Source: Nemertoderma westbladi (taxonomy: Eukaryota; Animalia; Xenacoelomorpha). Taken from it: 64,000 bases of DNA. The position numbers were made by a program, and so were the translations under genes. Where the stretch lies: NCBI GenBank assembly GCA_032718475.1, contig JAUCBJ010003036.1, positions 1-64,000 on the forward strand. The letters run 5' to 3'. The notes below the pieces were generated by a model. It worked only from the letters and a program-made list of their open reading frames with translations. It made no database searches and had not been told where the DNA came from. Of the stretch, positions 8,946 to 51,901 are shown one piece after another. Each line of letters starts with the position of its first letter. The stretch's first letter is position 1.

Positions 8946-8952
8946 TCGTCTG

Positions 8953-10009: not shown

Positions 10010-10010
10010 A

Positions 10011-31162: not shown

Positions 31163-31688
31163 TGTGACGGGATCTACGGATCCCGGTTTATCGGTTGGGT
31201 TTTCTATCCAAGCGTCCCCGCCGTGTGTGAAAGGTAAAAGAGTTCTGGTGTTCGGTTATATGTATAAGGTATAATAGTCTGATATATATATAGTATAACA
31301 CAACAGGTAATATAAGTATGATGGCGGTAGCGGACGGTGACAGAAGTCCCCGTTCCACCCTACTGATCTGACTGAGTAAACTGAATGAATGATTACAGGT
31401 TACTGGTTATATTGCACGGTGGCCTTATTGCTCCTCAATCGATGCCTTGCCCCCCTCTGATTGGTTGATATCCCTGTTGGCACCCTTTGGAGTGTTTCCC
31501 TTCACTCCCTGTGTTCTCTCTCGGTTAGGGGTTTGGCCCCTGACCCTTATTGTGTGTGTCTCCTTTGGGGCCTATTGTCCCCGTTTACTGGGCTGACACG
31601 AGGTTGACTGGTAATCAACCTCGTGCTCCCAATATTGCTTTATGGCTCACTCTATGGGTTTGTGTTAGCGGAATTGGATAAGCTAACA
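31163..31688 (-). repeat. Element B 3' LTR
   Basis: Preceded on the minus strand by the PPT; matches 44847-45372. Confidence 0.93.
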
Positions 31689-32049
31689 CTCCCCCCCATG
31701 CTATCTTCCCGGTGAGAAGATAGCATCCAACTCAAGTGCGCTACAATTCCGCTGGATCCCGATCTATTATCGGGTGTGGGGTGGGTCTATTTTTTTTCGG
31801 AGTCGGCTTTCCAGGCCGCTCCCTATGGGTATGATGTCACTACCCTCTGGCGTCTCGTGTCGGGCCGATCGTGCGCTTCTTTCACACAATTTTTGTTTCC
31901 CCAACACTCTCACCATTCTACTCCAACTCTCGCATACCCCCGGACCTCCTCGTCCCACACTCTTCCTCTCACTTCTCCTCCCCCACACTTGAATTGCGCC
32001 CACGCTCTCTTCGCACTCCGCACTATTACTCCATCCCTCCTTGTCACTC

Positions 32050-33520
32050 CCTAAGGCTTTAATCTCTAATGCTACCCCTGTGCTATCATACTATCTACCT
32101 ACTGCTTACTAACTCTAACTATCTAACTAACTCTGCTAACTACTAACTCTTACTACTTCTAGCTCTAACTGAGAGCCTCTAACTTTCTACTGACTCTAAC
32201 TCTCTACTAAGTCTAACTAACTCCTACTAACTTTCTACTTCTACTAACTCTACTTGACTCCTCTGAGTCTACCAACTCTGCTAACTAGCTCTACTAACTC
32301 TACTCCACTAGCTCTGCTAACTCTACTCCACTAGCTCTGCTAACTCTACTAACTAGCTCTACTAACTCTACTCCACTCTTCTAACTACGTGGCGCTTGCG
32401 GTGCCCACAACCATTCTACTATCTGGCACCCTATGTGCCCTTCTACTACTCAACTACCTCTCTAACTTACTACCTGGCACCCTATGTGCCCGTCTCTACT
32501 CTTCTACTCTCTGGCACCCTATGTGCCCGTCTCTACTCCTCTACATCCCCTTTACGTCTCATCGCCTACACGTGACGCTCTGAGTGCCGGCAGAGCGGGT
32601 ACGTTAATTATGTGAACTACTACTGACTCTACTAACTCTCTTCTAACTCTACTAACTCCTTTTGTGCCCGGCACCTCTTGTGCCCGGCACCTTCTAACTC
32701 TACTAACTCTCTTCTAACTCTACTAACTCTTTTTGTGCCCGGCACCTCTTGTGCCCGGCACCTTCTAACTCTACTAACTCAACTAACTCTACTACTAACT
32801 CAACTAACTCTACTACTAACTCTTTTTGTGCCCGGCACCTCTTGTGCCCGGCACCCACCCTAATTAACATACCCTGCTCTTACATCAAACACGTCATCAC
32901 GCCCGTGCCCCACTAAGTTCAGCGCATTCCCTACTAACTCTAACTACGTGGCGCTTACGGTGCCCACAACCCTCTACTGCTACTACTAACACCCCTAACT
33001 AGCGGTACTACGTACCCTCTTACTACTCTTACTCTCTAACGGTACTGCGTACCCCTTAACTCCTATTCTCTAACGGTACTGCGTACCCTCTTACTACTCT
33101 TACTCTCTAACGGTACTGCGTACCCCTTAACTCCTATTCTCTAACGGTACTGCGTACCCTCTAACTCTTACTCTAACTAGCGGTACTTACGTACCCTCTA
33201 ACTCTAACTACCTAGCGGTACTTACGTACCCTCTAACTCTACTAGCTAGCGGTACAACGTACCCTCTTACTACTCTAGCTCTCTCTACTAGCTAGCGGTA
33301 CTACGTACCCTCTTACTCTTACTCTAACACTAACTGTCAGTGCTAACTGACTAACTAACTAACTCTGACTCTAGGTACTACGTACCTCCTAACTAACTCC
33401 TCTACTAACGGTACTACACGTACCCTCCTACTAACTCTTCTACTAACGGTACTACGTACCACCCTTTAACTAACTAACTAACTAACTCTTACTACCTAAC
33501 TTCTACCTACTCTATTATTT
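32050..33520. repeat. Low-complexity 3' region of element B (CTAACT/CTACT repeats with GGTAC..GTACC and GTGCCCGGCAC motifs)
   Basis: Seen directly. Confidence 0.85.
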
Positions 33521-34240
33521 AATTATTTTCTTATTTTAATTAAATAATCATTTTATATTTTGCGCGTGGGAAGGGCGTCTCGCCCTCATTCCCACCCCCC
33601 TCAGTCCAAAACTTTGGACGACTAAAAACTCTCACGTGCCCCTTCTTCCGGTAGGCACTCTCCTGCTGCCCTCCTATACGTCCTCTAACTCTTCGCCACA
33701 CTCTCTTCGGTGCTACCTTTGCTGGCCTCCCCCTTCGTATGTGCGCTGGCATTAAAGCCCTCGACGACCCCCGCTCGTCCCTCGGTATACGCGGTGTCTG
33801 CCCGTGCAATGCCCCCTCGCACTGTGTCCGTCCTGCGTGTGTATGCAACACGCCTCCTTCTACTTTCCCGACTCCCTTTTTTTTTCAATTTTCAATTTAT
33901 TTTTCCTTTCAACAATTTCCTATTTCAGTACAATCAATACAAACATTGGATGAAGGTGATGGTGATGACGAAGTAGCAGACAATAGCGAAGCTAGTATAG
34001 CCTGCTACTCCGACTGGAAATTGATGGGTTGGAGGTGGGGTGGGGGGGGGGGGGTGGGTGGGCGTGTCTGCTCCTCTAGAATTTGTCTGGTTTTTGAGCT
34101 TTATTGTATGAGATATAATTGATGGTCAGCCGAATAGTGTAGCAGTAGCATTCTGGGATAGAAGACTTTGAGAGGCAATAAATGGCAGCGACTATAATAA
34201 AAGATACGTGGTGAGATATAAAAAGTGGGCATGGGCCTAA

Positions 34241-37200
34241 CTACAGGGACATTAACAGGTGGTATTTATACGCTGACGAAAATGCTTTTTTTGATTTTGA
34301 GTGTTTTAATTGAGATGGTAGTGCGTTCCAAATTGAAGGGCCTTGATAATTCATGGAAGCTTTGGAGGAAGTTAGGCGGACCTTCGGAATAGAGAAACCA
34401 TCCGTAGTAGCAAGGCGAGTTGGATATCTGTGTACAGAGGAAATTTTGGTGAATAATGAGCCTAGAGTAGAATCAGGTTTAAATAAGTTAGCGTTTACAT
34501 CGTACATGAGGGATCCTACTTGGTGCTTATAGAGGAGGTCAATAGGTAGGATGCCGAGAGACTTATAGATAGGTTTAGAAGAAGCTCGGTAGTGCGAGAA
34601 AGTAATACAGCGGAGGAGTTTGTTTATTTTTATACGTAGGGGTTGTAGGGTATAAGAATGGGTTTTGCCCCAGAGTAGAATGCCATACAATAAATAGGGG
34701 TGTACAAGTGAAAAATATAGTTGGCGAAGTATACGAAGGGGAAATATGTGACGCAGTTTGTAGAATATTCCGGAGGTTCTAGAGATTTTAGACGTAATAT
34801 GTTTAATGTGAGATTTCCAGTTTAAGTTGTCATCTACTAGAACCCCTAGAAATTTAGAATGTGGTTTCCGAGTAATGGGGGAATGGTTAATTAGTATTGG
34901 GTCGGAGTGAGTATTAGGGTAATTAGAGTATATAGCATATTCAGTCTTAGATAGATTGAGAGATAGACGGTTGTCTGATAGCCAGTCCGCAATCTTAGAT
35001 AATTCAGAGTTAGTTATGGAGATTAAAGAGTCCAGATTAGGTTTAGCTATATGAAGAGTTGTGTCGTCAGCAAATAATGTTGAGATTAGTGAGGTAGCAT
35101 TGGGAAGGTCGTTGATATACAATAGGAATAGGATTGGCGAGATAGTGGCGCCTTGTGGGACACCACATGTAATAGGTAAACTAGAAGAATGGTGGTTACC
35201 GATAGAAACAAATTGGGTTCTAGAATCTAGGAAGCTTGAGAGTAGTTGCTGTGGTATTCCCCGGATACCATAGGAGTTTAGCTTAGAGGTTAGGATAGAG
35301 TGATCAATAGTGTCGAAAGCCTTTTTTAGATCTATATAGATAGCACTGGTGAATAGTTTTTGGTCTAAGTATTTGTGAATATTCTCTACAACGGATAGCA
35401 GAGCATGGGATGTTGTAGATTTAGGGCGAAAGCCGAATTGAGAATTAGACAATATGGAATATTTTTTTAGGTACGAGAGTAGTTGGTTATTAATTATGGA
35501 TTCGTACAGTTTGCTTATTACGGGTAGAAGAGAAATAGGTCGGTAGTTATTAGTGTCCGATGGGTCGGCACTCTTGAATACGGGAATGACTTTGGCCGAT
35601 TTAAGAGCCTTAGGGAAGAAGCCTTGAGTTATCGATAGGTTAATTAGGTGAGATAGATGAATAGATAGTAATTTAGCAGACAACTGTAATAGTTTAATGG
35701 GGAAACAATCATGAGATGCAGATTTGGGGTCTAATTGGAGGATTAGATATTCGACTTCGACAGGGGATGTCTCTACCAGTGAAAATGAGTTAGAGCGAGT
35801 GTGGTTAATGAAGCGTAGTGGGGAGCGGTTGGATTTAGGAATATCGTTGGCTAGTTTAGGTCCTATGGTAGTAAAGTGTAGGTTGAAAGCTTCAGCAATT
35901 TGCTTTGGGTCGGTGATGGTTTTGGCAGAATTATCAGTACGGATAGTTAGTTTTTTTGGAGTATTTAAATGTTTTGTTTTATTTAATGCAGAGTTTATAA
36001 TTATCCATGTTTTGCGTATGTTACCTGAGTTAGTTTCGAATTCACTAGAGTAATAGGCCTTCTCGGCAGCCCTTAGAGTAGAAGTTAATTTATTCCTATA
36101 GGTTTTGTAAGCAAGAGTATTAGCAGGGGTAGGATTCCTAATGTAAATTCTGTATAATTTGTTTTTATTAATGGAACTTTTAATAAGATTATCAGTCATC
36201 CAGGGTTTAGATAATTTTTTACGGGGTGGAATAGATTTCTTAGGTAAATGTTTGTCGCAGATAGAATTAAAATCGGAGTAGAAAGAGTCTAGTTTGTCCT
36301 TGTCGGCTATAGTTGGAGTTAGATAAGACCAAGATTTACTACTGGCTACGTCTCTCAGAAATTGATCCTTGTTAAAACGCGAGTAATCGAATATTGTGTG
36401 TGGAGCTGCTGGATGAAAGTAACAGGAGTACTTCTGGAGGATAACGAATGTAGCATAGTGATCAGAAGTGCCTATTTGTGAGTTAAAAGTACCGGCTGTA
36501 GTAGTATAATTAGTAATGTTTGTAAGTATATGATCTATAAGAGTTTCAGAGTGTATTGTCTGATCGGGTAGTTCATTATGAAAAACACGTGTAGGTTGGT
36601 TGATAAGTTGTATAAAACCGTAGGAATTAATGAGGTCAGTATAGGATTTGGAAGTAGTGGTTGATTTTAGAAGGTTAATATTAATATCTCCTGTGATAAT
36701 TACATCATAGTTGTTTTTAGTAAGTTCAGTTAGAGCTAGATCGAGTAATTCAAGAAAATCAGTAGGGAGTACAGAATGTCTACGGTAAATAGTGCCTAGA
36801 ATTAAGGGCTTGGCATTTTGTGGTCTTTTGATTTGCACCCATGAATTTTCAAGACCATTCATTTTTAAATCAGGACGTGGGGACACATCCAGGGATTCCT
36901 TGACATAGATAGCAGTACCACCACGATTTAATTTGTCGCCTGTTTTCCGGATGTCAAGATAAGGGGTGTGAAAACCGGGAAAAGTGATTTCATTTAAATT
37001 TGAGTTACTGTCTAAAAAAGTTTCTGAAAATGTGATGACATCGAATTTGGTAGTTAATGTTAAGAGAAAAGTTTCAATATCAGATTTATTTTTGGGTAAG
37101 CTGCGGGCATTAAGGTGGAATATTTTTAGGCCTGTATTATCTAAATTTTTAAAGTCGTTGTTAAAAGTATCTTCTGTAAAATAACCGTTATTTATATTAA

Positions 37201-37522
37201 GTGAGACTGTATTATTTTCGGGGTCAAGCTGGCTAAATGTTTGGTTTATAATGTTTGAGTCTGTGTCATCATTTATTTCAGGAGAAAAATAGTGAAAAAT
37301 GTCGCTGTCATTATTGTCTACAACGGAAAACGGAAATATATCGAAATTACAGAATATACAGTAGACATAGGACATTGGGGTGGCTTCTATCTCAGAGCTG
37401 GATTGGTAAGATCCACATTGTGCATGATATGAATGGCCGCAAATATTACATTTAAAGTAGTAGTCCGAGGAGATAAATTGAGAGAAGCAGAGCGCGCATG
37501 AAGGGGTAGAAGGTTCATGCAT
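34241..37522 (-). CDS. LINE ORF2: PHD finger, APE endonuclease, reverse transcriptase
   Basis: 1093-aa uninterrupted ORF: CALC..CNIC..HAQC..CIFC, HLNARSL, FSETFL, GDIN, SDHY, NYRPISLL, DLKKAFD, GVPQG, LFADDT. Confidence 0.95.
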   Translation of the reverse strand: MHEPSTPSCALCFSQFISSDYYFKCNICGHSYHAQCGSYQSSSEIEATPMSYVYCIFCNFDIFPFSVVDNNDSDIFHYFSPEINDDTDSNIINQTFSQLDPENNTVSLNINNGYFTEDTFNNDFKNLDNTGLKIFHLNARSLPKNKSDIETFLLTLTTKFDVITFSETFLDSNSNLNEITFPGFHTPYLDIRKTGDKLNRGGTAIYVKESLDVSPRPDLKMNGLENSWVQIKRPQNAKPLILGTIYRRHSVLPTDFLELLDLALTELTKNNYDVIITGDININLLKSTTTSKSYTDLINSYGFIQLINQPTRVFHNELPDQTIHSETLIDHILTNITNYTTTAGTFNSQIGTSDHYATFVILQKYSCYFHPAAPHTIFDYSRFNKDQFLRDVASSKSWSYLTPTIADKDKLDSFYSDFNSICDKHLPKKSIPPRKKLSKPWMTDNLIKSSINKNKLYRIYIRNPTPANTLAYKTYRNKLTSTLRAAEKAYYSSEFETNSGNIRKTWIIINSALNKTKHLNTPKKLTIRTDNSAKTITDPKQIAEAFNLHFTTIGPKLANDIPKSNRSPLRFINHTRSNSFSLVETSPVEVEYLILQLDPKSASHDCFPIKLLQLSAKLLSIHLSHLINLSITQGFFPKALKSAKVIPVFKSADPSDTNNYRPISLLPVISKLYESIINNQLLSYLKKYSILSNSQFGFRPKSTTSHALLSVVENIHKYLDQKLFTSAIYIDLKKAFDTIDHSILTSKLNSYGIRGIPQQLLSSFLDSRTQFVSIGNHHSSSLPITCGVPQGATISPILFLLYINDLPNATSLISTLFADDTTLHIAKPNLDSLISITNSELSKIADWLSDNRLSLNLSKTEYAIYSNYPNTHSDPILINHSPITRKPHSKFLGVLVDDNLNWKSHIKHITSKISRTSGIFYKLRHIFPLRILRQLYFSLVHPYLLYGILLWGKTHSYTLQPLRIKINKLLRCITFSHYRASSKPIYKSLGILPIDLLYKHQVGSLMYDVNANLFKPDSTLGSLFTKISSVHRYPTRLATTDGFSIPKVRLTSSKASMNYQGPSIWNALPSQLKHSKSKKAFSSAYKYHLLMSL

Positions 37523-38100
37523 GGGGCGTTTAGTAAAGCGGGTGAGATGACATGAAATGATAAGCGAATGATGTTAGTAGTAATATTAACCACTATAAAT
37601 CATGACGTATACACCTGACTGACATGACATAATATATCAATTAATTATAAGAAATATTTTAGAACTAACAGTAATATATATATATATATATGTGAATGGG
37701 ATAATCAAAAACGGTATTAATTTAAATTTGACTTTATCCGTAATAAAGGTTTTCATCAGAAAGAAAATAAAATAAAGTAAAGATTGGTCCGTTCAAAACT
37801 TAGAGATAGGGCTAGTGTTTTTCATTTGTGGCGATTATTATCTTTCTGTTAAATAGTCCAAATGGATCTATGGTTGAAACATATATAAGTTCAATTATTA
37901 TCCCTTCAAAAAAAAATTTTAACCTACGATACCGGTACGCTTACATAGAATAACAACAAATTAAAGGCTAACAGAGCCAATAGTACAGTAATAGCCCACG
38001 ACCAATACTGCAATAGGTGAAATGAAGCTGCAACAGTACAGTGGGTAGTACATGACATCGCTCAATACTGCATTCAGTGTCGAGTTAGGCTCGATTCGAA

Positions 38101-38808
38101 TTATCCAGAAGAGTTTGGGATTGGTGGGCTACGACGATCAATGGTTTTCCTAGTTGGTAGGGTAGTCAACGACTCAAGGTCGGATTGGTTCGCAATGCGC
38201 AGTGGTAAATCATTTTCTTTAATGCGAATCATAACAACTCCATTGAATGAATATACCGCTCGTATTTCGTGTTTACGTTGTAGCTCACGCGCTTTGTTGT
38301 ACAGCTCAGCCCGGGATGGAATTAGATGTTCCGTTACGTATAACGGATTTGGCAACGATTTTTTACTCCGGATAGCTTGTAGTCGAGAAGCGTGGCCTAG
38401 AAGGCGTATTATAATAGGGCGACATTTAACTTTACCGTCTCCAGCAGCCCTTTCCTTGATTTTCTTGCCTAGCCTGTGGAACACATCGATCATAGAAGGA
38501 GGAATTCCGAGTTTATTTGTAATATCAAAGACAGCGGAACGTTCTTCATCTGGGTTGGTGTTTTCTGGTACAGCATGAATTAAGATATCGTGACGGCGAG
38601 AGTACTGGGCCAACTCTTCGTTTTCTGCTTTTAGCTGCTTGTTTTCTTTGACTAGATGATCAATGTTTTTTATCATGCCGGGGATAATCTTTAGAGTATC
38701 TTTTATTGCCGCGACGTCGTCTTTGATACCACTGAGGGATTTCAATTCGCTTTTAAGGATTTCGAGAGAATCCAGAATATCGTCACCTACGTCTTGCCAT
38801 CGAGTCAT
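38101..38808 (-). CDS. LINE ORF1 (coiled coil plus RRM-type nucleic-acid binding)
   Basis: 235 aa with LAQYSRRHDILIHAVPE, FHRLGK, RPIIIRL and YVTEHL motifs typical of L1/CR1-type ORF1. Confidence 0.85.
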   Translation of the reverse strand: MTRWQDVGDDILDSLEILKSELKSLSGIKDDVAAIKDTLKIIPGMIKNIDHLVKENKQLKAENEELAQYSRRHDILIHAVPENTNPDEERSAVFDITNKLGIPPSMIDVFHRLGKKIKERAAGDGKVKCRPIIIRLLGHASRLQAIRSKKSLPNPLYVTEHLIPSRAELYNKARELQRKHEIRAVYSFNGVVMIRIKENDLPLRIANQSDLESLTTLPTRKTIDRRSPPIPNSSG

Positions 38809-38989
38809 TTTGTGAACAGTTGGTGCGGAGGGTCGGTGCTGGCCAACGAGTTTAGCGTCTTACCGGTATCGCGGTAGTTACAGAGTTAGGCCTAATTATT
38901 TTGGAGATCAGCCAGTCTGTCAGTCAGTTGCCTACATCAAGTGAAGTACCGGTACCTGTACATCACCACTCAATCCAAATCATCAATAA

Positions 38990-41900
38990 TCAATTATTTT
39001 TATCAAAATCACATTTCTGTTTAATCTTGTTATTCTTCCTTCGTTTCTCAACAGTTATCCATTGGTCAGAAGAAATTGGAGTAAAAGATTCTGCTATTGC
39101 AGGTAAACAGGTGTTTATTCGACGACCAAACATTAAAGTAGCTGGAGCTACACCGGTTGAAGAATGTTGAGATGCAGCTAATTCCATAAACCCTTGAGCG
39201 AATTCATCTGAATGAAAGTCGCCATCAACTCGTTCTAATAATAACTTGACCTTTTTCACTGCGGCTTCTGCAGATCCATTGCTTTGGGGAAATTTTGGCG
39301 AACTAGGGCACCAATGGATTGACCAAGTTTTGAACCAAATCATCATTTCTTCTGATGAAAAACAAGTTTGACCATCAGATCTGATTACTTGAGGTACTCC
39401 ATACTCCATGAATAATGCGCGAAGTAGTTTTTTTATATATGATGATGATGTTGACTCATCGCAAAGGCGAATCCACAAGAATCCTGTTAACTCATCAACA
39501 ATTATGAGAAATTCCTGGCCCCCATACTTTGCAAAGTCCGTGCACAATACCTCCATTGGCCTTGTTGCACAAGGATAGGGAGTGAGTGGTTCAGCCGGAA
39601 GTGCTGGTCTAGATCTCTGACATGCATGACACTCATTCACCACTCGTTCAACGTCATCTCCAAGTCCAGGCCAATAGAAAAGTTCTCGTGCTCTAGCTTT
39701 CATCTTCTCTATTCCTGTGTGTGACTTGTGTAATTTACTCAATAATTCTGGTATTAATAATTGAGGAGGTATAAGCCGCTGGTTTCTGAGGATAACTCCA
39801 TCATTTCCAACTGTTAACTCATGTTTTATCTTTTTAAATTTTCTTGAATAATTGTTTTTTGAGAAATCGCCGGTATTTAATGCTACTATCAGTGATTGGT
39901 AATCCTGGTCTTCCATAGCCTTTGATCGTACCTGATCTAATCCTCTGTTGGGTATGAACTCTTTAACTGCTTCAGTCACGGCTGCTGCACAAATGGTTGC
40001 AAACTGATCAATATCAGTATTATCATCTTCATCTGGAGGTGAACAAGGGTATCGAGATAATGCGTCTGCCACATTATTTTCTTCTCCTTTTTTCCACTCA
40101 ACTGTAAAATTAAATCCAGTGAGTTTTGTTCGCCAATTTAGTATTCTTTTATTTTCTATCTCTGCAAGACTTTGTATATTGAAGATTGTCGTCAGTGCTC
40201 GGTGATCGGTTTGGATTGTGAAATGTGGACATCCCTCAACGTATATTTTAGTTTTGTTAATGGCCCAGTAGATTGCCAATGTTTCAAGTTCTACTGCTGC
40301 ATAATTTTCTTCTGCCGATCGTAACATGCGGCTGCCACATTGAAGTAGTGTCCGTGGTTCATTCAACTCCCCCTCCTGGAAGAGAGCAAATCCAAGTCCA
40401 CAAGTACTTGCATCTGTTTCTAAGATGAGATGTTTACCTCGTTCAAACATTCCGAGAATAGGTGGTGACAATAAAATATCCTTTGTTTTTTCCATTGCCT
40501 CAGTGTGTTCTTGTAACCAATGAAATGTGTTACGAGTTTGTAATATATTTCGGAATGGGGTCATTGTTTGTGCTAAATTTGGAATAAATGATGCCATCTG
40601 GTTGGCTAAACCAACAAATGAGCGTAAGTCTGTTCTTGTCTTTGGAATAGGAAATGACCTAATAGCTTCCACTTTACGTGAATCAGCTGTAATATGTCCA
40701 GCTGATATATGATAGCCAACAAAGTCAATTTGTTCTGTCGCCAATACACTCTTTGTAGAACTAATTGTGAACCCATGTTTCACACAACGTTCTAGAACTT
40801 CTGCCACATTTAGAACAAGTTCAGGTAATGTCTCCTTTCCAATAGCAATATCATCCATGACTTTCGATAAGTCATCAATGCCATTGAGTGCCACATCCCC
40901 ACGGAATGAAAAGGCATCTCCAGTGCTGGAAAAACCCATGGGACTACGTAAAAAGCGAAATTTACCTTTATTTGTTAGAAAAACGGTCATCCAGGAACTT
41001 TCATTATCGAGCTCCATTTGCCAATATCCTTTTACGAGATCTATTTTAGCAAAGAATCGGTGGTTCCGTTGAAACACATTCACAGCCTCCGCAGGTGTGG
41101 GTACTCTATGGATAGTGCGATCTATCTGATCATTGAGTTTCTTCAGGTCAACACAAATACGGACATCTCCTGATGGTTTGCCAACAACCACCAGTGGGTG
41201 ACACCATGGTGTTGGTGTATCCCCAACAGGTGTGATGATTCCGCGATTCAACATATAATTTAAGGCTTCATCAACCTTTTCCTTCAAATGAATTGGGATT
41301 GGTCGTGCTGCTGTAATGGCACTTGGAGTAGCATCTTCCTTGAGAAAAAAATGCATTGGTTCTCCAACTATGGGGAACTCCTTATGTTTGCTCATGGGCT
41401 TCTCTGCCCCTGGTCTAGTCCTTTCACATCCTCTCCCTTTCCAACACTCTCCGGATCTGTGTCCTTTTACCACACATCGATGACATAGTCCGTTTGCATC
41501 TGTGTAGGCTACACGATCTCGTTTGGGCAACGCTTGCCAGTACTTGCAACTCCTGGTCTTATGGGTTCCGTCCCGATGTAATTGACATTGGAATCCTGGA
41601 TTATAGCGTTTCCTGTATAGTCCTTCACGTATCGCGCTTAGGTTTATATGTACCGATTTAATGTTTTGGTTGTCTAGACTCGGCCTACTGGGTATATTGG
41701 GATTGTGTTTATTTTTGGTGTTATTTTCTTTCTGTCCCTGCCACGGTGTGGTCCTACTACCAGCTAACTGTGGACTGGTAGTCCCCTGTACGGCCGCGTG
41801 TGGTGGTGACTGTCCGCACGACCTGCTCTCGTCCAGGGAGTTCGATGTTCTTGCTCCTATCGGGGTATATTGTCGATATTGTGATGGGGGAATGTCACCC

Positions 41901-42832
41901 TGTCCCCCCCCAGCCGGTATGTTTGGTACTGGGGTTGATGTTAATATATTGGGGCCCATACATCTATCTCCAATAACTCCCCCCTCCCCTGGATATATGT
42001 TATGTCCCTGTGTATTATAGTCATGCTGCTGTACCGATATAGGCCTACCTACCTCTCGCCTACCTACCGGTATGTACTCCGCGGCTCCCGGGTTTAACCC
42101 CGTCGCTCGCGCTACCCCATCGCCTACTCTATCTCTCCCAGCATGGCCTATAATAGTATGTGCAGTAAGGCCTACAGTATGTCCTGCAGTCTGCATGTGC
42201 CCTTTGGAACCGAAGTTTATTCTTCGCGAATCTCGAATCTCCCCGCGACTACTGCACTCTCGATCGGCAGCTATATCCCGTCGGGAAGCTTCTCTCCGAT
42301 CCCCTCTCCTGTTCTCGACTCTGTATTGGTACGTCTTGTACCCCTCTCTTGGCGTGCGGTGCGTTTCTCCGGGGCGACGGCAATCTCCCGAAGTTCGACC
42401 CCACTGGCTCCCTGACTCCATCTCTACTGTCGACGGTCCGTTATCCGTCCTCGCACTGCTATCGTTCGTGGCGACACTTCTTCTACTATCTTCTCTTCTT
42501 CTCTTTTCTGTGTAGTATTCCGGCTCGTGAGGTCTCTCGTCGACTTCCCGGTTAAACTCCACTGTTCTTCTTCTCTCTTCTGATCGGGCTCGACGCTTCG
42601 TCTGCCCTCTCGCGACGTCAACCTGCCTCTCTCTGCTCGATCGCACGCCGCTGGGGACACTCGCAATCCCCCTATTACTCTCCGTCGCCGGGTGTTGCGG
42701 TTTACCTGATTCGGCCCGCGCATTATCCGCTGACGGCTGTGGGACACTCTCTGCCCCCCCTCTCTCTCTACTAATCTCTCGCGGTGGGGTGCCCGTAGCC
42801 CCCCCCCCCCCACCCGCCACTTCTAACTTCAC
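38990..42832 (-). CDS. Chimeric ORF: low-complexity N-terminus and BEL-type zinc knuckles fused to Mag-like Gypsy RT-RNase H-integrase
   Basis: 1280 aa open; CQLHRDGTHKTRSC and LCHRCVVKGHRSGEC, then KIDLVKGYWQM, VMDD, TDAS, VELE, TDH, H-H-C-C, TDFA, RSDG, SNGSAE; no protease or capsid. Confidence 0.85.
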   Translation of the reverse strand: MKLEVAGGGGGATGTPPREISRERGGAESVPQPSADNARAESGKPQHPATESNRGIASVPSGVRSSRERQVDVARGQTKRRARSEERRRTVEFNREVDERPHEPEYYTEKRRREDSRRSVATNDSSARTDNGPSTVEMESGSQWGRTSGDCRRPGETHRTPREGYKTYQYRVENRRGDRREASRRDIAADRECSSRGEIRDSRRINFGSKGHMQTAGHTVGLTAHTIIGHAGRDRVGDGVARATGLNPGAAEYIPVGRREVGRPISVQQHDYNTQGHNIYPGEGGVIGDRCMGPNILTSTPVPNIPAGGGQGDIPPSQYRQYTPIGARTSNSLDESRSCGQSPPHAAVQGTTSPQLAGSRTTPWQGQKENNTKNKHNPNIPSRPSLDNQNIKSVHINLSAIREGLYRKRYNPGFQCQLHRDGTHKTRSCKYWQALPKRDRVAYTDANGLCHRCVVKGHRSGECWKGRGCERTRPGAEKPMSKHKEFPIVGEPMHFFLKEDATPSAITAARPIPIHLKEKVDEALNYMLNRGIITPVGDTPTPWCHPLVVVGKPSGDVRICVDLKKLNDQIDRTIHRVPTPAEAVNVFQRNHRFFAKIDLVKGYWQMELDNESSWMTVFLTNKGKFRFLRSPMGFSSTGDAFSFRGDVALNGIDDLSKVMDDIAIGKETLPELVLNVAEVLERCVKHGFTISSTKSVLATEQIDFVGYHISAGHITADSRKVEAIRSFPIPKTRTDLRSFVGLANQMASFIPNLAQTMTPFRNILQTRNTFHWLQEHTEAMEKTKDILLSPPILGMFERGKHLILETDASTCGLGFALFQEGELNEPRTLLQCGSRMLRSAEENYAAVELETLAIYWAINKTKIYVEGCPHFTIQTDHRALTTIFNIQSLAEIENKRILNWRTKLTGFNFTVEWKKGEENNVADALSRYPCSPPDEDDNTDIDQFATICAAAVTEAVKEFIPNRGLDQVRSKAMEDQDYQSLIVALNTGDFSKNNYSRKFKKIKHELTVGNDGVILRNQRLIPPQLLIPELLSKLHKSHTGIEKMKARARELFYWPGLGDDVERVVNECHACQRSRPALPAEPLTPYPCATRPMEVLCTDFAKYGGQEFLIIVDELTGFLWIRLCDESTSSSYIKKLLRALFMEYGVPQVIRSDGQTCFSSEEMMIWFKTWSIHWCPSSPKFPQSNGSAEAAVKKVKLLLERVDGDFHSDEFAQGFMELAASQHSSTGVAPATLMFGRRINTCLPAIAESFTPISSDQWITVEKRRKNNKIKQKCDFDKNN

Positions 42833-43707
42833 TATTTCTTACTACACTTCTATACCCCTCTTGTGGAACATTCTCTGCCCCCCCTCTCTCGCCACTAATC
42901 TTATGTGGTGGGGCGCCCGTAGCCCCCCCCCCACCCGCCACATCTAACTTCAATATCTCTTACTTCGTCTCTACACCCCTCTCTAGTCGACGCGCTGTCT
43001 CTACTACGGCTGGGTCTATTCACCCCCGCCTCCCTCTCTACTACTGCGTGGCCCATCAGGCCTACTTCGGGTTGGCTCAACCCCGCTACCTCCTGCCTAC
43101 TAACTACGTGGCCTGCCAGGCCGCCGTCGGGTTGGCTCAACCATGCCACCTCCTGCCTACTAACTACGTGGCCTACCAGGCCCCCGTCTGCCGGGTTATG
43201 TACGTCCGACACGCTCACATTAATAGCACCATTCCCAATATTATTTGTTAAATCAATTAAATTATTAGAATTTGAAACGGGATTATTATTTAAATTATTT
43301 AAATTACTTAGATCACTACCATTCTCTAAACTTAAATTATTATTCGAATTATTTTGCGAGTTTGAATTGAAATTATTATTTAGAGTATTTGTATTTAAAT
43401 TACTACTACCTGGTAAAATATTATTATTTCCTGTAATAAAGGGATTAGGGTTATCTACTACGGTACTATTAATATTAACATTTCTTAACGTACTACTACT
43501 ACCCCCCCCCCCCCCGCCCGTACGGCTACACCAGTTCTGGCTCTCTCGCCCGGTGCCTGTAAGTGGGGTCTCACTCTCTGACAGTTCCAACCGCGCCAGT
43601 TTTAGTCGGCGCTGATTCAGTTCGGCTTGATATTGCGCAAGCCTCCCTATCCGGGCACATAAATCATCCCGCTCACGCTCTTTCTCTATCTCTCTCTCTC
43701 TGTACCC

Positions 43708-44757
43708 TCATAAACTTTGCTCGGCCGTCTCTCTCGCAAGCATATCAAACCAGCTCGCCGGCTCGCTCTCTACTCTCATCTCCCGATCTCTACGCTCCTC
43801 GGCTCTCTCTCTATTCTCCCTTGCAAACTCTAATAATCTGGTTTCACTCCTCAGTCGCCCCTCTAACTGTTTCTGCTCTGCCGCCGCCATTCCTAATTTA
43901 AACTTTAGATTTATCTTCAGCACCCTTCTTTCTTTCGCGGAGGATGTAGCAGACTTATCGGTTGCGACGGACTCCCGTCGCCCCTCCGTCCTACCAACTT
44001 TCCCCCGCTTCCCGGAACTTCCTCCAACCGACGAGACCGAATCCTCGGAGTTAACCTCGGATTCGCCCTCCCCAGGTCTCTTCCAACCCACTAACTTAAA
44101 TTCCCTGGCATCGACTAAGTATGGCCCTATGTACACTACACCAGGCCCCATACCCCTACGTTGCCATAGCCAAAACAGTTCGAAGGCAACCCCTCTCGCT
44201 CTCTCCCTGGCCAGTTCTCCCTGCCCAGAACGCACTAGGTGATCAAAGTATCTGTTCGACTCACCTAGTCGTCTCCTCAGTCTCACCTCGTCTATCTTCG
44301 CCCCTCCTTTGGCCTCTCTCAGTTGCTCCCGGGTCGCGAGGTAGGCCCGTCGAAGTCGATCAGAAACCCCGACGTCCTCGTCGCCGACCTCTCCTCCGTC
44401 TCTCCGGGTCCGACGTCGTACCGACGGCCCCACCGTCGCCGTTCCGGTGGACCGTTCGTCGTCCTCAGCCTGTGGCTGGCCGGTGACATCGGTATGTCGA
44501 CCCTCACTCCGCGTCGACTCGTCTTTCTCTTCTCCTCCCTTCTCGTCTCCTTCCCTCGACTCGCTCTCCGGTTGTAGACGACCCCCCACATCTTGGTTCG
44601 CCGGGTTGCTCGTTATCGACGTGGCGTCAACCTGCGTCGACGTGGTCGGCGTAGCATCGATCGGCGTCGTGGGTTCGTATCGTCTCGCCGTGGCCTCGCG
44701 GATCGTTAGATCGTCGTCCGGGGTCCGCGGCGGTGTCGTTCCTCTATCTCGACTCAT
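43708..44757 (-). CDS. First ORF of element B, charged/low-complexity protein of unknown function (possibly an extended Gag N-terminus)
   Basis: 349 aa starting ~90 nt after the LTR; GQGELARERAR...YIGPYLVDAREFKLVGW is conserved in element A (23856-24416). Confidence 0.55.
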   Translation of the reverse strand: MSRDRGTTPPRTPDDDLTIREATARRYEPTTPIDATPTTSTQVDATSITSNPANQDVGGRLQPESESREGDEKGGEEKDESTRSEGRHTDVTGQPQAEDDERSTGTATVGPSVRRRTRRDGGEVGDEDVGVSDRLRRAYLATREQLREAKGGAKIDEVRLRRRLGESNRYFDHLVRSGQGELARERARGVAFELFWLWQRRGMGPGVVYIGPYLVDAREFKLVGWKRPGEGESEVNSEDSVSSVGGSSGKRGKVGRTEGRRESVATDKSATSSAKERRVLKINLKFKLGMAAAEQKQLEGRLRSETRLLEFARENRERAEERRDREMRVESEPASWFDMLARETAEQSL

Positions 44758-44846
44758 CTTCGTCTTTAGTAGCTGGTCGTCGCTAGCTAGGACGGTAGCT
44801 CTATTCTATCTCTGTCAGGGCAGCTGGGCGGATCTGATTCTGTCAC

Positions 44847-45372
44847 TGTGACGGGATCTACGGATCCCGGTTTATCCGTTGGGTTTTCTATCCACGCGTC
44901 CCCGCCGTGTGTGAAAGGTAAAAGAGTTCTGGTGTTCGGTTATATGTATAAGGTATAATAGTCTGATATATATATAGTATAACACAACAGGTAATATAAG
45001 TATGATGGCGGTAGCGGACGGTGACAGAAGTCCCCGTTCCACCCTACTGATCTGACTGAGTAAACTGAATGAATGATTACAGGTTACTGGTTATATTGCA
45101 CGGTGGCCTTATTGCTACTCAATCGATGCCTTGCCCCCCTCTGATTGGTTGATATCCCTGTTGGCACCCTTTGGAGTGTTTCCCTTCACTCCCTGTGTTC
45201 TCTCTCGGTTAGGGGTTTGGCCCCTGACCCTTATTGTGTGTGTCTCCTTTGGGGCCTATTGTCCCCGTTTACTGGGCTGACACGAGGTTGATTGGTAATC
45301 AACCTCGTGCTCCCAATATTGCTTTATGTCTCACTCTATGGGTTTGTGTTAGCGGAATTGGATAAGCTAACA
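44847..45372 (-). repeat. Element B 5' LTR
   Basis: TGTTAG...GTCACA on the minus strand; flanked by the CTGAA TSD. Confidence 0.93.
45064..45095 (-). promoter_or_regulatory. Putative TATA box plus Inr of LTR B
   Basis: Minus strand TATAA (45091-45095) and TCAGT (45064-45068). Confidence 0.6.
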
Positions 45373-47460
45373 CTGAAGGAGTCGGGTTAGGTCTGGATCA
45401 GTCTTCTGAGCTTTTGCCATGTCGGCAAAATCGATAGTGACTGGCAGGATGGGTGCTAAGTCAATGGCATCGTTCGTAAACGGTGTGGATGCAGCATCGG
45501 AGGCTGACCTCGACATTGCGTCGGCAACAGCATTGTCTCTCCCTGGAAGGTGCACCAGGTCAGTAGTAAACTCGGAGATGTAACATAAATGGCGGATCTG
45601 GCGTGGTGTCCTATCTGCAGATGATGTGATGACGCCGACCAATGGTTTGTGGTCGGTAAAAACAGTGAATTTTCGCCCCTCGACGTACCAGGCAAAGTTC
45701 CTGATGGCCAGGTAGACTGCCAGTAGCTCACGATCGAAGGTGCTGTATTTAGTTTCAGCCAACTTCATTTTTGCTGAAAAGAAGGAGAGAGGAACCCACA
45801 TTCCATCCTGGAATTGTTCAAGGACAGCGCCGACTGCACGGTCAGATGCATCTGTGGAGATAGCAGTAAGGGCTCCCTCTCGGGGAAAAGCAAGAGTCGC
45901 GGCATTGAGCAGCAGCATCTTGACCTCCTGAAATGCATGAAACTGGGGCCAATTCCACTCCAGTCGTGTTGGTTTACCTGCCAGAACCTTGTGGAGAGGT
46001 TGGAGGACGTGGGCGGCATGGGAGAGGAAGCGTCTATAGAAGTTTATGACACCCAAGAACTCCTGAAGGTCTCTGACTGTTACCGGTTCTGGGTACTGCT
46101 GGATTGCATCGATTCTGTCAGATGGTGGGTGGATGCCATCAGCAGAGATGGAGTGTCCCAGGATTGTGAGACTAGGAACACCGAAGACACACTTTTCAAG
46201 GTTGATCACCAGCCCATTTGCTGCGAGACGCCCACATAGCATCCTGACATCCTTCTCATGGTCAACCATCCCACAACTACCGATGAGAATGTCGTCCTGG
46301 TAGGGCTTGGAGGCTGGCACTGGTTCGCATACCTCATCCATCAGTCTCTGCTGTGCCTGAGATGCATTGGACAGTCCAAACCCGACTCTGGTAGACTCGA
46401 ACAGGCCGAACGGAGTCGTTATTGCTGTCTTTGCTATGTCGTCTTCATGGACAGGGATCTGATTGTAGGCGCGTTTGAGGTCAATCTTAGTAAAGAGATT
46501 GCAACCTGCGAATGTGTGTGCAAAGTCCTGGATGTTGGGCAGTGGGTATGAGTCATCCTCTGTGATTGAGTTCAATTTGCGGTAATCACCGCATGGGCGC
46601 CAAGAACCATCTGGCTTTGGCACCATGTGGAGTGGGCTGCTCCAGGCGCTCTTGGACCGCCGCATGCTGCCATCGGCAACTTGCCCAAGAATGACTCTCT
46701 TGGCAATTGCCAACTTTTCAGGAGAGAGTCTGCGTGGTTTCGACCGGACAGGCGGCCCATGGGTAGGTATATGGTGGGTTACACCATGGGCGACTGTCTT
46801 CGAAGAGAAATCTGGCTGAGTAATCGACGGAAACTCGGCCAGGATGTCATTCCAGCGACTGCTGGAAGATGGCAGGAGGGAGGAGATGCTTGGGCAGTGC
46901 CCATATGCCAGGATCTGGAGGGAGGCAAAGTCGATGCAAACACCCAAAAAGCGGAGGATGTCTAGGCCAATGATAGGGCAGATGACATCGGCGACAGTGA
47001 ACAACCAAGAAGTCGGTTCATGGTGTGGCAGTGCCACAATCTGTCGCCTGAATCCATAAGTTTTGATGTTGGCACCATCTGCTGCACGGAGCGACCCGGT
47101 AGGGTCGCCATAGCGGTCCCCCGCAACAGCGGGAAGGACGGAAACAGTTGCACCCGAGTCGACCAGGAATTTGACACCAGACTCCTGGTCCCGGACATAC
47201 ATGAGAGAGGCCCCAGCACTATAGGCGGACCCACCTACAGCATAGATCGACCCATGGAGGAAAAGCAACGGTTCGACGGTGCCGTTGTCTCGCACATGAG
47301 AGATCAGGCCATTGTAGTTGACGCCGGTCGCCTTGCCTATTGGCGACCGGCACGTGCGTTTCCCGCCGATAACGACTTGGGTGTCGAGGAAGCGGATGGA
47401 TGGGAACATGGATCGTGGCATGTGCGGGCAGCATTGCCGAAACGGGTGTGGTAAAAGCAC
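45373..47460 (-). pseudogene. pol: Element C pol, PR-RT-RNase H part (interrupted by B)
   Basis: FLVDSGATVS, KIDLKRAYNQI, YQDDIL, TDASDRAVGA and ADAMSR in one open frame. Confidence 0.93.
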
Positions 47461-48386
47461 ATTCCTTTGCTCGCCGAGACTGTGTTCCAGTCTTTGTGTG
47501 AGCGGAAGCTGCCGGCTGGGGTTTTCTGCGACTTGGCAATCATATAGGTAGTAGCAGCCATCGGAGACTCCCGGACGATGATGTCGGCCTTCTCCGCATA
47601 AATCTCGAGTGGAATAGTATCATCCGCCATGATCCGGCGGACTTCAACCGGCATGCAGGACATGAAGTGTATGCGGAAATCGGTTGACTGTGGGGCATCT
47701 GACAGCGCCTCCATGCGGGCGAGCAGATGCGATGGCTTTTGGTCGCCGAGCGAGACGATCTTGGCCAGATCCTGTGCACGGTCGTAGCTCGATTTGGCAA
47801 AGAGGCGGATCAGTTTCAATTTCAGTTCGAGGTAGTTTGTGCCAGCATTGTTGGGATGAAGAACCTCGTTGTTTACCAGGTCGAGTGTGCTGTCATCGAT
47901 ATCAGCGATAAGTCGGACAAACTTATCCTGGTCTGCCACTATTCCCCTCTGCTCGAATGCGCTCTCGACTCGGACGAAGTAACGGCGAATTTCGGTGGTC
48001 GAGAATGGCGGTAGTTTAAATGGGAGAGGGACTTGGTGGGCGATCGCCGCTCTGGCAACTCCTGCCTGGAGGATAGGAGACTGTTGGATGATGGCGGTAG
48101 CAGCATCAGCGTGGGTTGGCGGAACCGTCGCATCGGCTGGCTGACGATCTCTGTGAGCTGGGGTAGGCATTTCGAGGGCTTCCACAGCGGCGAGAGCATC
48201 GGCTGGGCCCACATGGAGAAGGGCCAAGTTGCCCGGGTCCTGTCTGATCAGCAGGATAGCAACTGGGTTTTGGGTGAGGGCTGCCGCTGCGACTTGGGCA
48301 TTGTGGATGAGTTGTTCCGCCTCTTCCCTCAACTCGTGGGGGGCGTTGGCGATCGCCTGGATTTGGTCCGCCAGCAACTTCACCAT
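47337..48386 (-). CDS. gag: Element C Gag
   Basis: 349 aa with FKLPPF, LGDQKPSHLL and CFYHTRFGNAARTCHDPC (CHCC); overlaps the pol frame. Confidence 0.9.
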   Translation of the reverse strand: MVKLLADQIQAIANAPHELREEAEQLIHNAQVAAAALTQNPVAILLIRQDPGNLALLHVGPADALAAVEALEMPTPAHRDRQPADATVPPTHADAATAIIQQSPILQAGVARAAIAHQVPLPFKLPPFSTTEIRRYFVRVESAFEQRGIVADQDKFVRLIADIDDSTLDLVNNEVLHPNNAGTNYLELKLKLIRLFAKSSYDRAQDLAKIVSLGDQKPSHLLARMEALSDAPQSTDFRIHFMSCMPVEVRRIMADDTIPLEIYAEKADIIVRESPMAATTYMIAKSQKTPAGSFRSHKDWNTVSASKGMCFYHTRFGNAARTCHDPCSHPSASSTPKSLSAGNARAGRQ

Positions 48387-48421
48387 TATGCTGCGAGTTC
48401 AGATCTCGTCTGGGTCACCAG

Positions 48422-48654
48422 TGTGGTGCACGGGCCGAAATGAGTTCTAGTTGAATAAGGCCCCCATGCAACCAAGAAGAAAAGAAGATAGACAGATTTA
48501 CAGATAAAGTATATCAGTATTGCAGTATGATATTCAAACAGGTTACAGCATTAGGTACAACAGCAGTTCTCACATACCGGTAGGTAGGACTATATGTACC
48601 AATGGGTTAGGACCACACGACATATCATATATATCTCAATTTGAGTTCCCCACA
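48422..48654 (-). repeat. Element C 5' LTR
   Basis: Followed on the minus strand by the tRNA-Trp-type PBS. Confidence 0.95.
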
Positions 48655-49786
48655 CCGCCCTACCCACTGCCCTACCCACCGCCCTACCCGCCGCCCTGCC
48701 CCACAGCCACAGTCTCACGCCAACCTACCCGCCATTCTACCACACAGCCACAGTCTCACGCTGCCCTAATGCACAGCCACAGTCTCATGCCGCCCTACAC
48801 CACAGCCACAATCTCATGCCGCCCTACCCGCCACCCTACTCCACAGCCACAGTCTCACGCTGCCCTAACGCACAGCCACAGTCTCACGCCACCCTACCCG
48901 TCGCCATACCCCACAGCCACAGTCTCACACTGCCCTACCTGCCACCCTACCCCACAGCCACAGTCTCACGCCAACCTACCCGCCGTTCTACCACACAGCC
49001 ACAGTCTCACACCGCCCTACCCACTGCCCTACCCACCGCCCTACCCGCCGCCCTGCCCCACAGCCACAGTCTCACGCCAACCTACCCGCCATTCTACCAC
49101 ACAGCCACAGTCTCACGCTGCCCTAATGCACAGCCACAGTCTCATGCCGCCCTACACCACAGCCACAATCTCATGCCGCCCTACCCGCCACCCTACTCCA
49201 CAGCCACAGTCTCACGCTGCCCTAACGCACAGCCACAGTCTCACGCCACCCTACCCGTCGCCATACCCCACAGCCACAGTCTCACACCGCCCTACCCGCC
49301 GCCCTACCCCACAGCCACAGTCTCACGCCAACCTACCCGCCGTTCTACCACACAGCCACAGTCTCACACTGCCCACTGCCCTACCCACCGCCCTACCCGC
49401 TGCCCTGCCCCACAGTCTCACGCCAACCTACCCGCCATTCTACCACACAGCCACAGTCTCACGCTGCCCTAATGCACAGCCACAGTCTCATGCCGCCCTA
49501 CACCACAGCCACAATCTCACGCCGCTCTACCCGCCACCCTACTCCACAGCCACAGTCTCACGCTGCCCTAACGCACAGCCACAGTCTCACGCCACCCTAC
49601 CCGCCGCCCTACCCCACAGCCACAGTCTCACGCTGCCTTACCCCACAGCCACATTCTCACGCTGCCCTACCCCACAGCCACAGTCTCACGCCGCCCTACC
49701 CCACAGCCACAGTTGCACGCTGCCCTAACTAACAGCCACTGTCTCAAGCCACCCTACCCTACAATCACAATCTCACGCCGCCCTAC

Positions 49787-49856
49787 TACTACTACTAGGA
49801 TTGGCATGCTGCATTGCAGCTGCATTTTTAAGAATGCTGTGCCGGTTTATCGACAA
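49787..49856 (-). mobile_element. 70-bp 3' tip of the (GTA)n-tailed LINE inside the satellite
   Basis: Reverse complement of ~13415-13485; flanked by CAYGCCGCCCTAC on both sides. Confidence 0.9.
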
Positions 49857-51901
49857 CACATGCCGCCCTACCCACCCCCCTACCCCACAGCCACAATCGG
49901 ACGCGGCCCTACCACACAGCCACAGTCTCATGCTGCCCTAATGCACAGCCACATCCGCCCCCCCCCCTAGTCCACAGCCCCAGTCTCAAGCTGCCCTAAC
50001 GCACAGCTACAGTCTCATGCCGCCCTACCCGCCGCCCTACCCCACAGCCACAGTCTCACGCTGCCGTACCCCACAGCCACATTCTCACACCACCCTACCT
50101 GCCGCCTACCCCACAGCCACAGTCTCACGGCCGCCCTACCCCATAGCCACAGTCTCACACTGCCCTAATGCACAGCCACAGTCTCATGCCGCCCTACAGC
50201 ACAGCCACAATCTCACGCTGCCCTACCCATCGCCCTACCCCACAGCCACAGTCTGACGCGGCCCTACACCACAGCCACAGTCTCACTCTGCCCTACCGCA
50301 CAGCAACAGTCTCATGCCGCCCTGCCACACAGCCACAATCTGATACGGCCCTATCCCACAGCCACAGTCTCACGCCACCCTACCTCACAGCCACAATTTT
50401 ACGCCACCCTAGGTGCCACCCTACCCCACAGTCACAGTCTGATGCGACCCCCACCCCGCAGCCACAGTCTCACGCTGACCTACCCCACAGCCACAATCTC
50501 ACGCCGCCCTACCCGCCGCCCTACCCCACAGCCACAGTCTCACGCCGCCCTACCCGCCGCCCTACCCCACAGCCACATTCTCACACTGCCCCACCTCACA
50601 GCCACAGTCTCACGCACCCTACTCCACAGCCACAGTCTCACGCCGCCCTACCCCACAGCCACAATCTCACGCCGCCCTAGGCGCCACCCTACTCCACAGC
50701 CAGAGTCTGACGCGGCCCCACCCCGCAGCCACAGTATCAAGCTGACCTACCCCACAGCCACAATCTCACACCGCCCTACCTGCCGCCCTACCCCACAGCC
50801 ACAGTCTCACGCCGCCCTACCCGCCACTCTACCCCACAGCCACAGTCTCACGCTGCCCTACTCCATAGCCACATTCTCACACTGGCCTACCTCACAGCTA
50901 CAGTCTCACGCACCCTACCCCACAGCCACAGTCTCACGCCGCCCTACCCCACAGTCACAATCTCACACTGCCCTACCCCACAGCCACAGTCTCACGCCGC
51001 CCTACCCCACAGCCACAGTCTCACACTGCCCTACCCCACAGCCACAGTCTCATGCCGCTCTACCCGCTGCCCTACCCCACAGCCACAGACTCAAACTGCT
51101 CTACCCCACAGCCACAGTCTCACGCTACCCTAACCCACAGTCTCACGCTGCACTACCCGCCCCCCTACTCCACATCCACAGTCTCACGCTGCCCTACCCG
51201 CCGCCTACCCCACAGCCACAGTCTCACCCCGCCCTACCCCACAGCCACAGTCTCACGCTGCCCTACCCGCCGCCTACCCCACAGCCACAGTCTCACCCCG
51301 CCCTACCCCACAGCCACAGTCTCACGCTGCCCTACCCCACAGTCACAATCTCACACTGCCCTACCCCACAGCCACAGTCTCACCCCGCCCTACCCCACAG
51401 CCACAGTCTCACGCTGCCCTACCCCACAGCCACAGTCTCACGCCAACCTACCCGCCGTTCTACCACACAGCCACAGTCTCACACTGCCCACTGCCCTACC
51501 CACCGCCCTACCCGCTGCCCTGCCCCACAGTCTCACGCCAACCTACCCGCCATTCTACCACACAGCCACAGTCTCACGCTGCCCTAATGCACAGCCACAG
51601 TCTCATGCCGCCCTACACCACAGCCACAATCTCACGCCGCTCTACCCGCCACCCTACTCCACAGCCACAGTCTCACGCTGCCCTAACGCACAGCCACAGT
51701 CTCACGCCACCCTACCCGCCGCCCTACCCCACAGCCACAGTCTCACGCTGCCTTACCCCACAGCCACATTCTCACGCTGCCCTACCCCACAGCCACAGTC
51801 TCACGCCGCCCTACCCCACAGCCACAGTTGCACGCTGCCCTAACTAACAGCCACTGTCTCAAGCCACCCTACCCTACAATCACAATCTCACGCCGCCCTA
51901 C

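What the first reader, a model, noticed from the sequence alone, without database searches (positions are those of the whole stretch)
38990..42832. Inter-superfamily chimeric ORF: BEL zinc knuckle fused in frame to intact Gypsy RT-RH-IN
Seen: one 1280-codon frame runs from the element B backbone (BEL-type Cys/His knuckles) through ...EKPMSKHKE/FPIVGEPMHF... into AT-rich pol with RT (D..VMDD), RNase H and integrase HHCC and D,D,E residues all present. Relative to A, B lacks the capsid region and protease. Inference: an element that had lost its own RT regained an enzyme module from another superfamily. An in-frame landing has a 1-in-3 chance, so function is unproven.
Basis: partly seen in the sequence, partly recalled or inferred. 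Interest (0 to 1): 0.75.

Follow-up and report, generated by a model that had tools for sequence, protein, structure and literature searches.

The report
LINE-delivered Gypsy fragment in BEL copy
A real open frame joins a BEL-type gag remnant to a clipped Gypsy enzyme segment, but it likely arose by accident when a LINE retrotransposon pasted a Gypsy RNA fragment plus itself into one copy of an enzyme-less element, so it is probably not a working hybrid.

Summary
The frame is real: minus strand, 38993-42838, 1282 codons. It joins a BEL-type knuckle region to Gypsy RT-RNase H-integrase with the catalytic residues present. It is not intact: there is no protease or capsid, the third knuckle is degenerate, and the integrase stops about 100 residues short of its relatives.

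The Gypsy part is the front 2.4 kb of a 7.5 kb insert. The rest is a near-full CR1/L2-like LINE ending in poly(A). A 5-8 bp direct repeat flanks the whole insert.

Contigs of three DNA runs (two samples) show other B copies joined straight across this insert with no pol. They also show the same Gypsy segment (2 differences in 2378 bases) continuing into its own flanks elsewhere.

Best reading: one young LINE insertion, likely with a template jump onto a Gypsy RNA, landed in one copy of an RT-less BEL family and fell in frame by chance. This copy's own gag start is cut off from the fused frame by a stop and a frame change. No second fused copy was seen; the copy number and transcription of the fusion were not measured. 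A neat case of a known process, not a shown enzyme rescue.

The parts
38993..42838 (-). Fused open frame, 1282 codons stop to stop (stop codon 38990-38992); first Met at residue 140
41378..42838 (-). B part of the frame: BEL gag remnant without capsid; knuckles 1 and 2 (C418-C431, C452-C465) kept, knuckle 3 degenerate
38993..41370 (-). Internal Gypsy pol fragment: RT, RNase H, integrase HHCC and D,D(35)E core; no protease, no integrase tail, no Gypsy LTR; 2 synonymous differences from a contig of the source family
41371..41376 (-). 6 bases between B and the point where source-Gypsy contigs stop matching; filler or diverged Gypsy bases
41377..41383 (.). Right copy of candidate target-site duplication (ACTCC plus TT on the + strand)
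38983..38992 (-). 10 bases matched by neither the Gypsy nor the LINE contigs; they hold the stop codon of the fused frame
33877..38982 (-). Near-full-length CR1/L2-like LINE in the same orientation: ORF1 38101-38859, ORF2 34241-37573 (Cys-rich start, endonuclease, RT), A-rich tail and poly(A) at 33877-33885
33871..33878 (.). Left copy of candidate target-site duplication, merging with the poly(A) tail
33543..33875 (-). B backbone resumes: short remnant like the one at the 3' end of element A (56% over 50 codons); read as the end of a BEL integrase from recalled motifs
42901..44805 (-). Upstream gag-like frames of B (first Met 44757), broken by a stop at 43708-43710 and in a different frame from the fused ORF
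44847..45372 (-). 5' LTR of B, 526 bp, TG...CA; 5 bp target-site duplication CTGAA outside it
31163..31688 (-). 3' LTR of B, 5 differences from the 5' LTR; purine tract just before it

Best explanation
The fused frame is likely a by-product of one LINE retrotransposition event into an existing copy of an RT-less BEL-derived element. Shown: a 7.5 kb insert made of an internal Gypsy pol piece, then a same-strand near-full LINE with poly(A), sits between two copies of a short direct repeat, at a site where other B copies are continuous. Inferred: the LINE enzyme nicked B, primed on its own poly(A), copied almost all of its RNA, jumped to the RNA of an active Gypsy element just behind the integrase core, copied 2.4 kb back to the start of RT, and was joined to the target. 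The Gypsy piece fell in frame with B's gag remnant by chance (1 in 3). Predicted: no working hybrid, since capsid, protease and integrase tail are missing and this copy's gag start does not read into the frame.
For:: joints from 33858/33875 to 41382-41401, skipping the whole insert, in all 3 holder DNA runs (2 samples, 2 studies), 5 joint rows, contig depths 152-798. The 33875-to-41382 joint loses no B sequence. Source-Gypsy contigs stop matching at 41370 and 38993 and run on unlike the window (X1 records 7 and 8: 536 and 520 letters; X2 record 15: 300 and 270). LINE contigs run on 35-85 letters past 38982. ACTCC lies at both ends of the insert, beside poly(A). Both Gypsy differences are synonymous. 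B's LTRs differ at 5 of 526 against 2 of 2378 for the Gypsy piece (P=0.03 that they are equally old), so the insert looks younger than B's own integration; integrase tail and protease missing; upstream B frames are in another phase. The layout fits LINE chimeras in print (passages of PMC4476161, PMC2104539, 10.1101/2025.02.02.635956).
Against: The direct repeat is short: 5 bases unambiguous, 7-8 with one indel and overlap with the poly(A); the papers read report 10-20 bp. No listed contig piece bridges either junction of the fused form (one search shows 32 of about 24,700 pieces), so the junctions are seen only in the window. Template jump and 5' transduction give the same final structure. The age test rests on 7 events and assumes equal rates. 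Contig depth is not copy number. The catalytic residues and a long open frame are kept, as a functional fusion would also show, though youth explains this equally.
Confidence: 0.58

Rival explanations
1. LINE 5' transduction. The LINE first inserted into the integrase tail of a Gypsy copy elsewhere. A transcript from the Gypsy LTR read through to the LINE poly(A), was copied by the LINE enzyme, was 5'-truncated at the start of RT, and landed in B. Still one accidental LINE insertion.
For: Same final structure, poly(A) and direct repeat. The 10 filler bases could date from the first LINE insertion. 5' transductions are described.
Against: Needs three events in a very short time, as the Gypsy piece differs from its family at only 2 synonymous sites in 2378. 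No donor junction appears among the listed contigs, whose main Gypsy path runs on into other sequence.
Confidence: 0.22
2. Double template switch by an LTR reverse transcriptase inside a particle: from B RNA to a co-packaged Gypsy-LINE RNA and back, so the chimera integrated as a new element.
For: The insert lies inside an LTR element with both LTRs and its own 5 bp duplication. The process is documented in animals, including a BEL case (PMC5131818 passages). The short repeat could be read as microsimilarity.
Against: In that paper part of the element was replaced, and poly(A) and duplications were absent. Here no B sequence is lost at the main joint, and poly(A) and a repeat are present. The insert looks younger than B's LTRs (P=0.03).
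Confidence: 0.07
3. Separate DNA-level steps (Gypsy insertion, deletions on both sides, then LINE insertion), or an assembly join of repeats.
For: The window is a nest of young repeats. No listed contig bridges the junctions.
Against: One direct repeat flanks both parts at the exact empty site, no Gypsy LTR trace remains, and short fillers at both junctions are unlike an overlap join.
Confidence: 0.1
4. One reading: a selected, functional hybrid in which a BEL-derived element regained RT and integrase from Gypsy and spreads.
For: In-frame junction right at the RT start; catalytic residues kept; the two differences from the source are synonymous; both B LTRs present.
Against: No protease or capsid, integrase tail cut, gag start out of frame. 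A 5 kb LINE with a poly(A) signal sits before the 3' LTR. B copies without pol are present in every holder run. The knuckle's 5 relatives are BEL-like gag proteins, none fused to RT.
Confidence: 0.03

Closest known systems
LINE chimeric insertions by template switching (U6/L1 in mammals, U6/L2 in platypus, MINE and tripartite chimeras in Magnaporthe)
   Same: 5' piece of another RNA, then a same-strand LINE ending in poly(A), the whole inside one direct repeat (passages of PMC4476161, PMC2104539, 10.1101/2025.02.02.635956).
   Different: The 5' partner is a 2.4 kb internal coding piece of an LTR retrotransposon, the LINE is nearly full length, the repeat is only 5-8 bp, and the target is another retrotransposon's reading frame.
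LTR-mediated retroposition (PMC5131818)
   Same: Foreign RNA-derived sequence inside an LTR element that keeps both LTRs.
   Different: There the insert replaces internal sequence and lacks poly(A) and duplication; here nothing is replaced at the main joint and both marks are present.
BEL/Pao retrotransposons (Sinbad, PMC554778)
   Same: Knuckles 1 and 2 fit the BEL Cys-His pattern (knuckle 1 with His for the second Cys, as in 2 of 5 database relatives); related element A carries DUF1759.
   Different: B has no capsid, protease or BEL RT, and its third knuckle is degenerate: a non-autonomous derivative.
Ty3/Gypsy pol, near copepod (Tigriopus) elements; 'Mag-like' is a recalled label, from no call
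   Same: Gypsy-type RNase H and integrase Pfam families, D,D(35)E spacing, 43-46% identity to the top three hits.
   Different: No protease, no integrase tail, no LTR of its own at this locus.

Membership tests
LINE chimeric insertion | LINE 3' end with poly(A) at the 3' junction | tested here: met
   A-rich tail and 9 A at 33877-33885
LINE chimeric insertion | One target-site duplication around both parts | tested here: inconclusive
   ACTCC at both ends and once at the empty site of other copies, but only 5 bases are unambiguous
LINE chimeric insertion | Both parts in the same orientation | tested here: met
   Gypsy pol, LINE ORF1 and ORF2 all on the minus strand
LINE chimeric insertion | Empty site continuous, parents exist apart | tested here: met
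   Joints across the insert in other B copies, and Gypsy and LINE contigs running on past the junctions; these are sister copies, not the empty allele of this locus
LINE chimeric insertion | Template jump rather than a pre-joined donor locus | not testable with these tools
   No whole genome held
BEL/Pao element (B backbone) | Triple Cys-His box in gag | tested here: inconclusive
   Two of three boxes kept, third degenerate (pattern from PMC554778). All 5 hits show the triple box, 2 of 5 carry DUF1759
BEL/Pao element (B backbone) | BEL protease, RT, RNase H and long-spaced integrase | tested here: not met
   Absent from B; B is BEL-derived, not a complete member
BEL/Pao element (B backbone) | TG...CA LTRs with short target-site duplication | tested here: met
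   526 bp LTRs, 5 bp duplication; not specific to BEL
Ty3/Gypsy pol | RT-RNase H-integrase order with Gypsy-type domains and D,D(35)E | tested here: met
   BEL spacing is longer
Ty3/Gypsy pol | RT groups with Gypsy, apart from BEL, in a tree | tested here: inconclusive
   Nested in a 100-support clade of 18 rows of Gypsy-type relatives (quick tree), but no BEL RT was in the tree
Autonomous LTR retrotransposon | Capsid, protease and complete integrase in a translatable gag-pol | tested here: not met
Autonomous LTR retrotransposon | Several copies at independent loci; transcription | not tested
   No genome held; junction-level contig look-up not answered
CR1/L2-group LINE | ORF1 plus ORF2 with endonuclease and RT | tested here: met
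CR1/L2-group LINE | Clade by RT tree | not tested
   Label rests on layout and recall

The most novel reading that the evidence does not exclude
LINE template jumps can carry a nearly whole pol module from one LTR superfamily into another, and this copy is a hybrid caught at birth: transcribed from B's LTR, translated from an internal Met into a knuckle-RT-RNase H-integrase protein, and already copied to further loci with capsid and protease from other elements.
Probability: 0.04. Interest if true: 0.75.

Novelty: new variant of a known kind. Interest (0 to 1): 0.3.

Why it matters
Under the best reading it shows a route by which three retrotransposon classes mix in one step: a LINE enzyme moves Gypsy enzyme-coding sequence into a BEL backbone, in frame. 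That is raw material for module exchange between superfamilies. It is also a warning that long, clean 'chimeric' frames in repeat nests can be young accidents. It would matter much more only if the fused form were multi-copy or translated.

Tried and rejected
No whole genome is held, so copies could not be counted. No RNA holder was listed; this says nothing on expression. Run X5 (another organism label, RNA only by guess, share 0.10) laid on B backbone pieces at depth 2-4 and not on the Gypsy part: not used. A second contig lay aimed at the junctions did not complete, so presence and depth of the junctions in other samples stay open.

Word-based protein searches with the knuckle (44 candidates, 0 scored) and with A's DUF1759 segment (90 candidates, 0 scored) were blank, so no BEL RT was obtained for the tree. 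The careful tree did not finish; the quick one is cited (33 of 120 hits picked by hand, plus 2 window proteins). The atlas search did not complete, nor did the metagenome scan. No earlier findings near this place.

Rejected: that this knuckle is the normal knuckle of this Gypsy lineage (best score 10.5 bits among 120 pol relatives against 35-39 for the 5 knuckle hits). Rejected: that B lost its pol by this event (sister copies are continuous across the site). Summed depth (B 1e4-1e5, Gypsy 129-510) was not read as copy number, as the tool warns. dN/dS between A and B (0.20-0.52 in 7 of 8 blocks, 0.98 in one) is biased by protein-guided local alignment and dates from before the fusion.

Full report
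OBSERVATION. The frame lies on the minus strand, 38993-42838, 1282 codons between stops; the plus strand is full of stops. Pfam finds RT, two Gypsy-type RNase H models, the integrase zinc domain and rve in residues 554-1181. The catalytic motifs are present, and the integrase spacing is D1155-E1191, that is D,D(35)E; BEL integrases have a longer spacing (PMC554778, passages). GC falls from 0.53 to 0.40 across 41377. The first 487 codons are a real gag-derived frame: 0 stops against 22 and 33 in the other frames, and 44-62% protein identity to segments of element A.

THE KNUCKLE IS BEL-TYPE. A full-library search with the knuckle region gave 5 proteins at E up to 0.001. All 5 show a triple Cys-His box; 2 of 5 carry DUF1759 and 1 of 5 DUF1758. 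B keeps boxes 1 and 2; box 3 is degenerate. Element A carries DUF1759 (E 8e-8). The knuckle scores at most 10.5 bits against 120 relatives of the pol part, and none of those 120 lists DUF1759, DUF1758 or Peptidase_A17 (read by eye; 120 of 453 hits were listed). So the two halves have different origins.

THE POL IS NOT INTACT. Of 125 stored proteins, 42 matched at E up to 1e-100 and were at most 2000 residues long. 40 of these 42 run on 40 or more residues (median 101) past the end of the frame, and 39 of 42 have a protease motif within 260 residues upstream of the junction; the frame has none (alignment). A quick tree nests the RT-RNase H among Gypsy-type relatives next to three proteins, two of them named from Tigriopus (support 99); it held no BEL RT. 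B's own gag-like frame starts at 44757, is broken by a stop at 43708-43710, and is in another phase from the fused frame. The fused frame's first Met is residue 140. No TGG-type primer site follows the 5' LTR (the expected form is recalled).

THE CONTEXT. B (LTRs 31163-31688 and 44847-45372, 5 differences, 5 bp duplication) interrupts the pol gene of a host Gypsy. Directly behind the fused frame, on the same strand, lies a LINE with ORF1, ORF2 (endonuclease and RT) and a poly(A) at 33877-33885, after which B resumes. The motif ACTCC lies at 33871 and at 41377, at the two outer ends of Gypsy piece plus LINE.

OTHER COPIES. Seven runs were listed, three holding 84-86% of the words (two samples, two studies; one may be the window's source). 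Four were laid. All three DNA holders have contigs that join 33858 or 33875 to 41382-41401 and skip the whole 7.5 kb, in 5 listed joint rows with depths 152-798 (15 of 49 joints shown). So B without pol is a standing, varied family form. The Gypsy segment is held near-identical (2 differences in 2378 in X2, both synonymous), on contigs that stop matching at 41370 and 38993 and run on for 270-536 letters unlike the window: a fuller source element exists elsewhere. LINE contigs stop matching at 38982 and run on 35-85 letters. Ten bases between LINE and Gypsy match neither and supply the stop codon. No listed piece bridges a junction of the fused form, but only 32 of about 24,700 pieces were shown and contigs drop rare forms, so this shows neither absence nor single copy.

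MECHANISM. Shown: insert make-up, orientation, poly(A), short repeat, continuous sister copies, separate parents. Inferred: one LINE-primed insertion into an existing B copy, most likely with a jump from the LINE RNA to a Gypsy RNA. The insert looks younger than B's LTR pair (5 of 526 against 2 of 2378; P=0.03; few events, equal rates assumed). This layout matches LINE chimeras described in mammals, platypus and a fungus (passages only of PMC4476161, PMC2104539 and 10.1101/2025.02.02.635956). It departs from LTR-mediated retroposition, where internal sequence is replaced and poly(A) and duplications are absent (passages of PMC5131818). 5' transduction from a Gypsy copy that holds this LINE cannot be told apart without the genome. 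Against my reading: the repeat is shorter than those in the papers, and the junctions are seen only in the window.

NOVELTY. Five literature searches (listings only, apart from the five papers read as passages; no supplements seen) showed no title or abstract start on a BEL/Gypsy hybrid or on a LINE chimera with an LTR-element RNA. The searches were narrow and the library lacks most subscription papers, so this is weak. I file it as a new variant of LINE chimeric insertion, probably without function. The labels 'Mag-like' and 'CR1/L2-like', and the reading of the 3' remnant as a BEL integrase end, are recalled, not from a call.

VERDICT. Observation mostly right, 'intact' wrong, 'regained' unsupported. 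One LINE-driven accident, by either route: about 0.80. Working hybrid: about 0.03-0.04. Interest 0.3.

Noticed in passing
window 31163-45372 (element B): B looks like an abundant family that lacks RT and, in this copy, capsid, yet keeps a long gag-like frame: 5 of the 8 listed family differences in 41378-42838 are synonymous. What this protein does, and which element moves B, is open.
   Followed up: partly
window about 13600-24800 (element A): A second RT-less BEL-derived element, decayed, with DUF1759 and a protease-like segment; its local matches to B are about 61-79% identical.
   Followed up: partly
window 17973-23111: Gypsy element nested in A on the opposite strand, 394 bp LTRs with 6 differences, pol 36-38% identical to the captured fragment: related but not the source.
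   Followed up: partly
window 29544-48655: Host Gypsy (DUF7041 gag), 240 bp LTRs with 2 differences, split by B at the start of its integrase and set in a C-rich satellite.
   Followed up: partly
window 48650-64000 and 28947-29550: More than 15 kb of C-rich tandem satellite with strong GC skew (about -0.6) and long spurious open frames.
   Followed up: no
window 6349-8947 and 8840-11249: Tandem array with a period of about 53 bp running into a truncated LINE with endonuclease and partial RT.
   Followed up: no
window 531-4817: Decayed Gypsy with 181 bp LTRs (96.7%), gag similar in kind to the host Gypsy.
   Followed up: no
window 32100-33500: B's 3' region is made of short A/G-rich tandem repeats on the minus strand.
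   Followed up: no
window 37574-38100: About 530 AT-rich bases with a TA run between LINE ORF1 and ORF2; single contigs cross it, so it belongs to the LINE family. ORF1 weakly matches Baculo_FP_2nd (E 7e-4).
   Followed up: partly
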